Virus record (IMG/VR): IMGVR_UViG_2737471845_000005 | DNA length: 30,396 bases | Source: a virus | Taxonomy: Duplodnaviria; Heunggongvirae; Uroviricota; Caudoviricetes | Reading direction: 5' to 3' (one strand) | In this document: positions 3,001 through 6,000 of the stretch, one piece after another | Position numbering within the stretch: the first letter of the stretch is position 1 | Layout: each line of letters begins with the position of its first letter | Position numbers: made by a program

Positions 3001-6000
3001 GACATTGATGTAAGAAAGGCTGTGCATGCCAAGATTCTGAGAGATCATCATAAAGATCCTGACACCCTAATCATTGATGAGTTTACGATGAATCTAGGGG
3101 CTAGCAGAGCTGATATAGCAGTGATCAATGGGCTTATACATGGTTATGAGTTGAAGAGCAAGAGTGATAACTTGCTCAGATTACCAGCGCAGGTGCAACA
3201 TTACTCATCAGTGATGGATAAAGTAACGTTGGTTGTCTCTGATTGCCATCTTTATGATGCTTTAAGCATAGTTCCATCATGGTGGGGGATAAAGCAAGTT
3301 ACGCAAGGTGCACGGCAAGGTATCCATTTAAAAACAATTCGAACTAGCAAGTTGAATCCACAAGTGGACAAACTTTCCTTAACAATGCTTCTTTGGAAAG
3401 ATGAATTGCTTTCCCTATTAAGTGATGTAGGGGAGCTACAGAATTTGAAAAATAAACCTAAACGCGTCTTATGGTCAAAACTCGCCAATAGTATGGATGT
3501 TGGCGAGCTTCGTGAAGCTGTTCGAGTTAAACTTAAAGCCCGTAAAGAGTGGCGAGTTGCTCAACAACCTTAGTTATGTGATGGTTTTGCCCAATCCTAC
3601 GCCATACCTCTGGGCTACCAAATTTATAGTTACCAGAGGGATTGGCTTTGTAGGCTTGATACTCGTTTGCATAATATTCTATGTCTCTATCTCCCGCACA
3701 GAATGTAGGCCCTGAATATTCTCGATGAGCAAGAATATCCTCACTATGTTTACCATATTGTTCATAACCAAAGCGATTAGCTACTCTTCCTCGAAATACC
3801 CAAAAGTCATTATCTCCAGAGTATCTGACGCTGGCAGATACGCTAGGGAATCGCGTCGAAAGCCTATTAAAGTCGGGGTGCTGTACTCCATAATCACTAT
3901 AAATCACATTTCTGGCAAGTTCTTTTCTATTCATTAAACTCTGCCATAAAATCCACTCGATTCGAGGTTGAGAATATAGACCAACAGAAATATCACTGAG
4001 ATCTGTAGGAAATGAACCCCCAGAAAGAATCACTTTTCTGTATTCATTGAGGTGCGCCAGATTGTTTATCAATCCCATTGCCAAAGTATATAGTTCGCCG
4101 GAATTAAGTTTATCCTCGGTTAACTCATCTCTTAAGTCAATAATTATATCAATATTTGATAAAGGAATTCCCAGATGATTAATGTAATGCGTTATTAATT
4201 GTGGGTTAACCAGATCTAACGTGGTTAATCTCAAGCATATTTCATTCTGCATTAATTCATCAATCGCTCTTTTATAGTTAGATGGGCGAGTTGGTGAACT
4301 GACAGGAATAACTCTTATCCCCATATCTCTAACTTGATGAACCGCATTTATTATAGGGTAATGATCTTCAGGAGAAATAAAATGCTCTTCAATTAATAAT
4401 CCATCAATATAAACACCTTGCATATCTGAGCAAGATTTTGAGACTTTCTTTCCGAACTCTATAAGAGTCTCGTTATAACTCTTTAAGGCAATACCTGAAT
4501 CAGGGTCAATTGGCACTGGTTCAATTTCGAGTAATGGCAAAATTTTTGATTTCTTTTCAATGGATAGCTGCGATAAAGCTGATAACTCAGAACGTTTCGC
4601 TTTCAGAATAGGAATATATGAAATTGTCATGTTAATACCTTATACAGAATCAATTAACAATTAATGGTTCTTCGGACATTGAAATTTATATCGCAAAAAT
4701 TGGCAAACTCTCCTCGACTACTCACTTGTGGGTATCCTGGCGTAAAAGGAATGACTTGGCAATACCCGGTGTGATCATAAGTCATTGAAAATGATCATTT
4801 TTATCAGTCTTTCTTCCATGATGAATGCTAATGCCATTTGATTTGTTGAGGTGAAAACTGTTAAAAATCAAAACGATGTAATTGAAATGAACGTTCGGTA
4901 GCATTCACGCTTTAAATGTTTCTTTTGTGCTGATTGGATGAATTTTGGTCACTTATGATGAGAGATGTTGCAGGAAAAGAAGTTGGCATTGATCTATTGG
5001 ATAGTTAGAATTGCTGCGGGTGCTTGAGGCTATCTGCCTCAGGCATGAACACCAAAAGGCAGACAGAGAAAAGCCCCAGTTAACATTACGCGTCCTGCAA
5101 GACGCTTAACATTAATCTGAGGCCCAATCTATGTCTCACAAATGTAGGTTAGCCTCTTACGTGCCGAAAGGCAAGGAGAAGCAGGCTATGAAGCAGCAAA
5201 AGGCGATGTTATTCGCCCTGATTGTCATCTGTTTAACCGTCATAGTGACGGCACTGGTAACGAGGAAGGACCTCTGCGAGGTACGAATCCGAACCGGCCA
5301 GACGGAGGTCGCTGTCTTCACAGCTTACGAACCTGAGGAGTAAGAGACCAGGCGGGGGAGAAATCCCTCGCCACCTCTCATGTGTCAGGCATCCTCAACG
5401 CACCCGCACTAAACCCGCTTCGGCGGGTTTTTTGTTGCGCGCTGAATGCGCAGGGTGAAAAATAACCATATATTTGATTATATACACAACAAAAAATAAA
5501 AGTCATTGTACCTGCACATTAAATAATCAAATATACGGCGTGAAATAAATATTTTTCAGATTAATATTTTTGTCTCTATGTGGATATAACCGTTTGTACT
5601 TATAAACTCGGAGGCATCGTGGAAAAAATAAAGAAACTATTTAGTTGCAAATACGCAGTCATACGTCGTGATGACCTGTCAGTTATAGTCGAAATGGATT
5701 ACTTCCCTGAAACCCCAAAATCAATGATGTATCGTAATGGTCGAAAGGCAATTTTTTTACCGATGAGGGTAAGTGACATTATGGGAAATGATAAACTGCT
5801 GGATGAATTGCGAGTCAGAGCATCATGTTAGTATTGGCATTAATTCTGGTATACTACATAACGGGCTGAACACCCATTCTACTGCGCCAGCGGAGAACTA
5901 CGATGGCGCATATACAACTGGTCAAACAAACCTCTTCCGGATTACTTCTCCCGGCGACGCCGGAGAGTTGCGATTTTTTGCATCAAATCAAAATAGGTGA

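What the first reader, a model, noticed from the sequence alone, without database searches (positions are those of the whole stretch)
5030..5440. hok-type type I toxin with in-frame upstream ATG (mok-like) and conserved leader and terminator
The 51-aa product is an unmistakable Hok/Gef-family toxin and the leader resembles the R1 hok/sok leader. Unlike plasmid R1, where mok overlaps hok out of frame, the upstream ATG at 5131 here is in frame with hok, so translation from it would give an N-terminally extended 70-aa Hok. A sok-like antisense RNA is expected on the minus strand but was not delimited. A post-segregational-killing-type module beside the candidate defence pair may stabilise the island or act in abortive infection.
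Basis: partly seen in the sequence, partly recalled or inferred. Interest (0 to 1): 0.5.

Follow-up and report, generated by a model that had tools for sequence, protein, structure and literature searches.

The report
Ordinary prophage hok/mok/sok toxin-antitoxin locus

Summary
Window 5188-5343 (+) encodes a 51-aa Hok/Gef toxin (Pfam HOK_GEF, 84 bits). An ATG at 5131 is in frame and gives a 70-aa ORF. The leader matches Rfam RF01794 (118 bits against a threshold of 59), and an intrinsic terminator lies at 5411-5436.

All canonical hok-family elements are present:
- the hok promoter;
- 5'-3' tac/fbi end-pairing, supported by compensatory changes;
- the mok ribosome-binding site;
- the hok SD;
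- the Sok antisense gene on the minus strand, 5139->5063, by projection from K-12 sokC/sokB/sokE. Its promoter segment is identical to that of the experimentally studied sokW.

The supposed peculiarity is ordinary. Several annotated loci have the same in-frame layout: K-12 mokC/hokC and mokA/hokA, the mok/hok annotation of phage Rac-SA53, and the characterised hokW-sokW locus of Stx2 phage. So do 67 of 79 phage contigs and 32 of 50 genomic relatives. Close relatives instead place the mok ATG at -58 (R1/R100 type) or -56. This fits published evidence that only mok translation up to the hok start matters.

The locus matches 4,726 of 5,426 complete E. coli genomes and is routinely annotated hokD. 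It is already known and of low interest.

The parts
4983..5011 (+). hok/mok mRNA promoter: -35 TTGGCA (4983-4988), 17-nt spacer, -10 TAGAAT (5006-5011)
   Evidence: Consensus scan, 10 of 12 matches. The -10 aligns with TATAAT of K-12 hokC and TATGAT of an R1-type plasmid.
5018..5436 (+). Full-length hok mRNA (about 419 nt), from the inferred 5' end GGGUGCUUGAGG to the terminator T run
   Evidence: The Rfam RF01794 model starts at 5018. The 5' end is conserved in 38+ relatives. MFE -169 kcal/mol, z = -6.3 against shuffles.
5018..5029 (+). tac element (5' end). It pairs with fbi in the full-length mRNA, or folds into a local 5' hairpin (5020-5046) once fbi is removed.
   Evidence: The MFE pairs 5018-5029 with 5393-5405. 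The truncated RNA folds the 5' end locally. Across 40 sequences, pair 4/404 is U-A in 27 and C-G in 11.
5063..5139 (-). Sok antisense RNA (about 77 nt): a 5' tail complementary to the mok SD and AUG, a long terminator hairpin, and a U-rich 3' end
   Evidence: The K-12 sokC, sokB and sokE annotations all project to 5139->5063. Fold -33 kcal/mol, z = -5.8. Ends are inferred by homology, not mapped.
5146..5174 (-). Sok promoter: -35 TTGCCT (5174->5169), 17-nt spacer, -10 TAACCT (5151->5146); start about 5139
   Evidence: The 30-mer at 5147-5176 is identical to the sokW-promoter-spanning oligo YO-597 of PMC8621323. That paper's promoter-less mutant primer YO-421 alters the GGTTAG (= TAACC) element. 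Same position as TTGCGC-17-TATCC in the R1-type plasmid. Not detected by the consensus scan.
5119..5122 (+). mok Shine-Dalgarno GAGG, 8 nt upstream of the mok ATG
   Evidence: Columns G102, G104 and G105 are invariant in alignment A1. Corresponds to the GAGG mok SD mutated in R1 (PMC9841398).
5131..5343 (+). mok reading frame, in frame with hok (70 codons; the first 19 are MSHKCRLASYVPKGKEKQA)
   Evidence: Aligns with annotated mokC and Rac-SA53 mok. An ATG at -57 is found in 67 of 79 phage contigs.
5173..5178 (+). hok Shine-Dalgarno (AAGGAG)
   Evidence: Conserved AAGGAG block upstream of the hok ATG in all aligned loci.
5188..5343 (+). hok CDS, 51 aa. Identical to K-12 HokD except I9F.
   Evidence: Pfam HOK_GEF 84 bits. 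Comparison with HokD.
5326..5329 (+). TACG motif at the Tyr47 codon, a potential TadA A-to-I editing site (Tyr->Cys)
   Evidence: T309 A310 C311 G312 are invariant in A1. Editing of hokD at the equivalent Tyr is reported in PMC5630033. Not tested here.
5351..5372 (+). 3'-UTR GC-rich stem-loop, the likely protective 3' hairpin of the processed mRNA
   Evidence: Helix 16: 97.9% paired, 3 pairs with compensatory change. The role is inferred from R1 (PMC9841398).
5393..5405 (+). fbi (fold-back inhibition) element, CCUCAACGCACCC, complementary to the 5' end
5411..5436 (+). Intrinsic terminator (AAACCCGC-TTCG-GCGGGTTT, then T run)
   Evidence: Shared with K-12 hokD.

Best explanation
The region is an intact hok/mok/sok type I toxin-antitoxin locus of the hokD/hokW clade, sitting in the accessory (nin-like) region of a lambdoid prophage.

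Inferred mechanism, by homology with R1 hok/sok:
1. The + strand promoter (4983-5011) makes a stable mRNA of about 419 nt. Its extreme 5' end (tac, 5018-5029) pairs with a 3' element (fbi, 5393-5405). This keeps the mok ribosome-binding site closed to both ribosomes and Sok.
2. Slow 3' trimming removes fbi, the 5' end refolds locally, and the mok SD and AUG (5119-5133) open.
3. While the unstable antisense Sok RNA (minus strand, about 5139->5063) is being made, it pairs with that region and the duplex is destroyed.
4. When Sok synthesis stops, ribosomes start at the mok AUG and translate through the hok SD and start. This allows translation of the 51-aa Hok, which inserts in the inner membrane and depolarises the cell.

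Because mok is in frame here, ribosomes that start at 5131 necessarily make a 70-aa Mok-Hok fusion as well. The frame is incidental to the coupling.

The most likely biological setting is the one shown for the ~93% identical hokW-sokW: Sok disappears on prophage induction and Hok is produced ahead of holin/endolysin, which assists lysis and phage release. A prophage-retention (addiction) effect is a plausible by-product.

Shown here: the sequence elements, their conservation and covariation, and homology to annotated or tested loci. Inferred: transcript ends, processing, Sok action, toxicity and biological role.
For: Identity of the toxin and leader:
- Pfam HOK_GEF, 84 bits.
- Rfam RF01794, full-length match at 118 bits.

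Structure of the mRNA:
- The MFE of the full-length RNA pairs 5018-5029 with 5393-5405 (z -6.3). Removing the 3' end re-folds the 5' end into a local hairpin.
- On 40 relatives the window's MFE structure is 86.7% paired, against 41-47% when partners are slid. 32 pairs have a change on both sides (0 of 500 shuffles reach this). The tac/fbi helix is 91% paired, with U-A replaced by C-G in 11 sequences.

Sok:
- Its position comes from three independent K-12 annotations.
- The promoter 30-mer is identical to that of sokW, which was functionally tested.

mok:
- The ATG aligns with annotated mokC and Rac-SA53 mok.
- The mok start lies at -57, -58 or -56 in relatives. This agrees with published data that only translation up to the hok start is needed (PMC9841398).

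Function and context:
- hokW-sokW has been shown to be a TA system that promotes lysis and phage release (PMC8621323).
- Prophage context: ydaT/ydaV-like genes upstream; Q-region, holin and terminase downstream.
Against: - No expression data exist for this copy.
- The consensus promoter scan did not call the Sok promoter; its -10, TAACCT, matches only 3 of 6.
- Chromosomal hok loci tested in the past (hokA, hokB, hokC) did not mediate post-segregational killing, as summarised in bioRxiv 10.1101/2025.08.07.668861.
- The Sok region is only 89.6% identical to sokW, and the 3' UTR 75%, so quantitative behaviour may differ.
- Hok carries an I9F change not seen in about 90 fetched relatives.
- NCBIfam Hok models score below their curated cut-offs (48 against 73 bits).
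Confidence: 0.9

Rival explanations
1. The locus is a silent or decayed chromosomal remnant, like K-12 hokA, hokC, hokD and hokE: sequence-recognisable but not able to kill or be regulated.
For: Several K-12 loci are disrupted: IS186 next to hokC and hokE, IS150 truncating mokA, and hokD lacking its whole leader. Published tests found that chromosomal loci did not mediate PSK.
Against: Every element is present and uninterrupted here: both promoters, tac, mok SD and ATG, hok SD and ATG, the 3' hairpin, fbi and the terminator. No IS element is nearby. The sequence is 98.5% identical to copies kept in many genomes and about 93% identical to functional hokW-sokW. 42 of 45 diverse Hok peptides tested were toxic.
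Confidence: 0.07
2. The mechanism is as in the best explanation, but the main role is prophage or island maintenance, or abortive-infection defence, acting together with the adjacent defence-like gene pair.
For: The neighbouring genes hit PADLOC models: PD-Lambda-2_C at 140 bits and 'cll' at 98 bits. R1 hok/sok on a high-copy plasmid reduced T4 plating, as cited in PMC8621323. The gene order beta-family gene then hok recurs in DEC5E and Rac-SA53.
Against: A large survey found no enrichment of hok near defence systems. In hokW-sokW phage (Stx2 phage I) the upstream neighbours are different genes, so the linkage is not obligatory. Deleting hokW-sokW lowered phage yield rather than affecting host growth.
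Confidence: 0.2
3. The ATG at 5131 is fortuitous and unused, and Hok is translated directly from its own SD.
For: The hok SD (AAGGAG) is strong. The Hok survey authors note that Mok start prediction is ambiguous.
Against: An ATG at -57, -58 or -56, preceded by an invariant GAGG, is present in nearly all relatives. Sok is complementary to exactly this site. In R1, mutations of the mok start codon, the mok SD, or an early stop codon in mok abolish Hok production (PMC9841398).
Confidence: 0.04

Closest known systems
hokW-sokW of Sakai prophage Sp5 / Stx2-converting phages (Takada et al. 2021, PMC8621323)
   Same: Both sit in a lambdoid prophage and share the same architecture, including an in-frame 70-aa mok-hok ORF (ORF-33c). 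Identity is 93.8% in the leader and 92.9% in the hok CDS. The Sok promoter 30-mer is identical, and both have the same extended Sok hairpin.
   Different: The Hok C-terminus differs (VFTAYEPEE here, VFVDYESEK in HokW). There are 8 differences in the 77-nt Sok region, the terminator differs, and the upstream neighbours differ.
hokD (relF) of E. coli K-12 Qin prophage
   Same: The Hok protein is identical except I9F. The 3' UTR, fbi and terminator are nearly identical.
   Different: K-12 hokD has lost everything upstream of the hok SD (promoter, tac, mok, sok) and lies behind relBE. The window carries the complete regulated form.
hokC(gef)/mokC/sokC of E. coli K-12
   Same: mok is in frame with hok (69 aa against 50 aa, shared stop codon). 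sok lies on the opposite strand over the mok start. The 5' end GGGTGCTTGAGG is the same.
   Different: It is a chromosomal, non-prophage locus with IS186 adjacent, which replaces the 3' region including fbi. Its Sok hairpin is about 18 nt shorter, and Hok is about 80% identical.
hok/mok/sok (parB) of plasmids R1/R100
   Same: All regulatory elements lie at homologous positions: the -10, tac, mok SD and ATG, the Sok promoter, the hok SD, and 5'-3' end pairing.
   Different: mok starts 58 nt, not 57 nt, before hok and so reads out of frame. Hok is only about 44% identical (PMC8621323). It is plasmid-borne with a PSK role.

Membership tests
[quoted passage not shown] | Small (about 50 aa) hydrophobic Hok/Gef toxin ORF | tested here: met
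   Pfam PF01848, 84 bits against a cut-off of 22, covering the full model 1-42. 98% identical to HokD. NCBIfam Hok models hit but score below their curated cut-offs.
[quoted passage not shown] | Upstream overlapping mok reading frame with its own SD, running at least to the hok start | tested here: met
   GAGG at 5119-5122 and ATG at 5131, with the ORF running through hok. It aligns with annotated mokC and Rac-SA53 mok.
[quoted passage not shown] | cis-encoded antisense Sok RNA overlapping the mok translation initiation region, with its own promoter and terminator hairpin | tested here: met
   Met by homology only. Three K-12 sok annotations project to 5139->5063. The RNA folds as a hairpin with a U-rich tail (z -5.8). 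The promoter segment is identical to the tested sokW promoter. Expression is not testable here, and the consensus scan did not detect the promoter.
[quoted passage not shown] | Long-range tac/fbi pairing of the mRNA 5' and 3' ends | tested here: met
   Present in the MFE. Helix 1 is 91.4% paired in 40 sequences, with 3 pairs changed on both sides.
[quoted passage not shown] | Conserved leader RNA (Rfam RF01794) | tested here: met
   118.3 bits against a gathering score of 59, model positions 1-157 of 157. The model matches the hok-sense strand.
[quoted passage not shown] | Toxicity of Hok, antidote activity of Sok, and activation by 3' processing | not testable with these tools
   Shown experimentally only for relatives: hokW-sokW (PMC8621323) and R1 (PMC9841398).
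R1-type layout (mok out of frame with hok) | mok ATG 58 nt upstream of the hok ATG, reading in the +1 frame | tested here: not met
   The spacing is 57 nt here and 58 nt in R100-type plasmids. This is a layout difference within the family, not a criterion for excluding membership.

The most novel reading that the evidence does not exclude
In the in-frame (-57) layout, every ribosome that starts at mok must make a 70-aa Mok-Hok fusion carrying a basic 19-residue N-terminal extension. This longer species could be a functionally distinct toxin isoform, for example with different membrane insertion or timing. The coexistence of -56, -57 and -58 layouts among loci with identical Hok would then reflect selection between isoform regimes rather than neutral drift. 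None of the papers read here reports detection or testing of the fusion.
Probability: 0.1. Interest if true: 0.3.

Novelty: already known. Interest (0 to 1): 0.08.

Why it matters
It matters little beyond correct annotation. The window carries a complete, regulated hokD/hokW-type module: the mok ORF, the Sok RNA, the promoters, tac/fbi and the terminator. Automated annotation reduces this to a single 'hokD' CDS. One by-product has modest value. The mok start sits at -56, -57 or -58 in close relatives with the same toxin. This is natural-variation evidence for the published conclusion that the act of translating mok up to the hok start, not the Mok product or its frame, is what couples hok expression.

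Tried and rejected
- **Promoter scan.** The sigma-70 consensus scan over 4800-5700 found the hok promoter but no minus-strand promoter in 5140-5180. The Sok promoter had to be placed by homology.
- **hok start.** My first calls used 5189 as the hok start and failed. The ATG is at 5188.
- **R1 record.** The accession I tried for plasmid R1 (KY749247, recalled from memory) is not in the plasmid collection.
- **NCBIfam.** The Hok subfamily and HokA models hit below their curated cut-offs, so they cannot be used for naming.
- **PADLOC.** It has no model that hits Hok.
- **Rfam strand.** The + strand of the 'sok' hit cannot be taken as the Sok strand. The 157-nt model is the hok leader in sense orientation.
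- **'Decayed copy' idea.** Considered and rejected, because no element is missing or interrupted.
- **'Novel in-frame Mok' idea.** Considered and rejected after finding the same layout in K-12 mokC, Rac-SA53, hokW and most relatives.

Full report
**What is in the sequence.**
The + strand carries a single ORF at 5131..5343 (70 aa, ATG start). An internal in-frame ATG at 5188 begins a 51-aa peptide, MKQQKAMLFALIVICLTVIVTALVTRKDLCEVRIRTGQTEVAVFTAYEPEE. Both products hit Pfam HOK_GEF over the whole model (82.7 and 84 bits; cut-off 22). Rfam family RF01794 ('sok') matches 5018-5193 on the + strand from model position 1 to 157 (118.3 bits, gathering score 59). A sigma-70-like promoter, TTGGCA-17-TAGAAT, ends at 5011, six bases before the start of the Rfam match. 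A GC hairpin with a T run lies at 5411-5436. Only the left boundary needs moving, to 4983 for the promoter or 5018 for the transcript.

**How common it is.**
The 481 nt around the locus match 4,726 of 5,426 complete E. coli genomes, with a median of 2 places per genome. The best match is 98.5% identical, in an O55:H7 prophage, where PGAP annotates only 'hokD'. It also matches 79 phage records. There the feature is variously named Hok, MokW, 'host killer protein', 'gef: phage maintenance protein' or 'mok / hok'. The surrounding genes place it in the accessory region of a lambdoid prophage: ydaT/ydaV-like genes upstream; DUF1367/DUF1364, the Q region, holin, endolysin and terminase downstream.

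**Anatomy by comparison.**
I aligned the window with K-12 hokC, hokB, hokE, hokA and hokD, with phage Rac-SA53, and with an IncFII plasmid whose Hok is identical to R1 Hok.
- The alignment shows homologous -10 boxes, the same 5' end (GGGTGCTTGAGG), an aligned mok ATG preceded by GAGG, the hok SD AAGGAG, and a 3' element complementary to the 5' end.
- K-12 hokD shares the coding region, 3' UTR and terminator. It has lost everything upstream of the hok SD, so the window holds the intact form of what K-12 retains as a stump.
- The annotated K-12 sokC, sokB and sokE RNAs lie on the strand opposite to hok. All three project onto the same interval, window 5139->5063 on the minus strand.
- Upstream of that start, on the minus strand, are TTGCCT (5174->5169), a 17-nt spacer and TAACCT (5151->5146).
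- The 30-mer at 5147-5176 is identical to oligo YO-597 of Takada et al. 2021. That paper's 'promoter-less' mutagenic primer changes exactly the TAACC element.
- All the primers checked from that paper are found exactly in Stx2-converting phage I, which therefore carries hokW-sokW. The window is 93.8% identical to it in the leader, 89.6% in Sok and 92.9% in hok.
- The predicted 77-nt Sok folds into a long hairpin followed by a U-rich tail (-33 kcal/mol, z -5.8).
- The generic consensus scan did not flag this promoter. Its assignment rests on homology to a promoter that was mutated experimentally.
- The Rfam 'sok' model is in hok-sense orientation and spans the whole leader, so its + strand hit does not contradict a minus-strand Sok.

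**RNA structure.**
- The minimum-free-energy fold of 5018-5436 pairs the first 12 nucleotides with 5393-5405, the tac/fbi end-pairing of the hok family (-169 kcal/mol, z -6.3).
- With the 3' end removed (5018-5388), the 5' end instead forms a local hairpin at 5020-5046. This is the kind of switch described for R1 (PMC9841398).
- On an alignment of 40 distinct relatives from Escherichia, Kluyvera, Photorhabdus, Pantoea, Citrobacter and others, the window's MFE structure is 86.7% paired, against 41-47% when partners are slid by 1-3 columns. 32 pairs change on both sides (0 of 500 shuffles reach this).
- In the tac/fbi helix, U-A is replaced by C-G in 11 sequences. The Sok-target/terminator helix has 6 pairs with a change on both sides, and the helix that sequesters the hok start region has 4.
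- The structure was derived from one member of the alignment, which inflates the percentage paired. It does not inflate the counts of compensatory change.

**The in-frame ATG.**
This is the only part of the finding presented as unusual, and it is not unusual.
- K-12 mokC (16751..16960) and hokC (16751..16903) share a stop codon, as do mokA and hokA. mokB is out of frame.
- GenBank record KU052037 (phage Rac-SA53) annotates mok 17816..18028 and hok 17873..18028.
- The characterised hokW locus has the same 70-aa in-frame ORF.
- Among 50 genomic relatives, 32 have the ATG at -57 (in frame), 10 at -58, 3 at -56 and 5 have none in that window.
- Among 79 IMG/VR contigs with 98% identical Hok, 67 have the ATG at -57, 10 at -56 and 2 are leaderless like K-12 hokD.
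- In the -56 type, the 19-codon ORF ends in an ATGA overlap with the hok start.
- The R1/R100 sequence has the ATG at -58, giving a 70-codon out-of-frame mok. An IncFII plasmid with the identical Hok has it at -57.
- This lability fits the experimental conclusion that mok must be translated up to the hok SD and start, but neither beyond that point nor for its product (PMC9841398).
- The one direct consequence of the in-frame layout is that ribosomes starting at 5131 will make a 70-aa Mok-Hok fusion. Whether that species matters is not addressed in the papers I read.

**Mechanism and role.**
The molecular mechanism is taken over from R1, on the strength of element-by-element homology and covariation:
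1. a stable, closed full-length mRNA;
2. slow 3' trimming and refolding;
3. Sok pairing at the mok initiation region, followed by duplex cleavage;
4. mok-coupled Hok translation once Sok decays;
5. membrane depolarisation.

For the biological role, the nearest experimental evidence is hokW-sokW. There sokW RNA disappears after mitomycin C, and HokW appears about 1 h before the endolysin in a RecA-dependent way. Deletion delays growth arrest and halves phage release (PMC8621323). Prophage addiction or abortive infection remain possible. The neighbours at 2995-4630 do hit PADLOC models (PD-Lambda-2_C at 140 bits, 'cll' at 98 bits). However, a large survey found no enrichment of hok next to defence systems, and the hokW phage has different upstream neighbours.

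**Verdict.**
This is a correct observation of an already known and very common element. The feature flagged as special is the majority layout of its clade, so interest is low.

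Noticed in passing
window 5131 / 5188; loci L010-L148: The mok start lies at -57 (in frame), -58 (long out-of-frame ORF, R1/R100 type) or -56 (19-codon ORF ending in an ATGA overlap with the hok start), even among loci that encode the identical Hok protein. The frame of mok is evolutionarily labile, while its start site and SD are fixed.
   Followed up: partly
window 5326-5329: The Hok Tyr47 codon TAC followed by G forms the TadA editing motif TACG. It is invariant in 40 relatives. 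A-to-I editing of the equivalent Tyr to Cys is reported for K-12 hokC, hokD and hokE (PMC5630033).
   Followed up: no
window about 5088-5106 (minus-strand Sok hairpin): The Sok hairpin and the corresponding hok-leader hairpin carry an extension of about 18 nt relative to K-12 sokC, sokB and sokE. This makes Sok about 77 nt rather than about 59 nt. The extension is shared by the prophage clade and by Kluyvera loci.
   Followed up: partly
window 2995-3573 (+) and 3533-4630 (-): The convergent, overlapping gene pair just upstream hits PADLOC models: 'cll' at 97.7 bits and PD-Lambda-2_C at 140 bits (also 'beta', weakly). RefSeq names them sce7726 family and beta family proteins. The same pair precedes hok in DEC5E and Rac-SA53 but not in Stx2 phage I.
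   Followed up: partly
window 7376-7452 and 7478-7561: Rfam hits to isrK (73.7 bits) and to C4 antisense RNA (66.7 bits), adjacent on the + strand. These are prophage-borne small RNAs of the antirepressor / anti-Q type region.
   Followed up: no
phage record PP818812.1; loci L027, L032: The best hit in the phage collection is 'Actinobacillus phage vB_Apl-pPE4' (98%). Very short contigs labelled Acinetobacter idrijaensis and Xanthomonas pisi carry the same E. coli-type hok. These are probably contamination or mislabelled hosts.
   Followed up: no
window 5212 (Hok codon 9): The window's Hok has Phe at position 9, where about 90 fetched close relatives have Ile (rarely Leu or Val). The change is conservative and lies within the transmembrane helix.
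   Followed up: partly
window 5018-5193: Rfam RF01794, named 'sok antitoxin', matches the hok-sense strand and covers the whole 157-nt hok leader up to the hok AUG. Its hits give the wrong strand and extent for the actual Sok RNA.
   Followed up: yes
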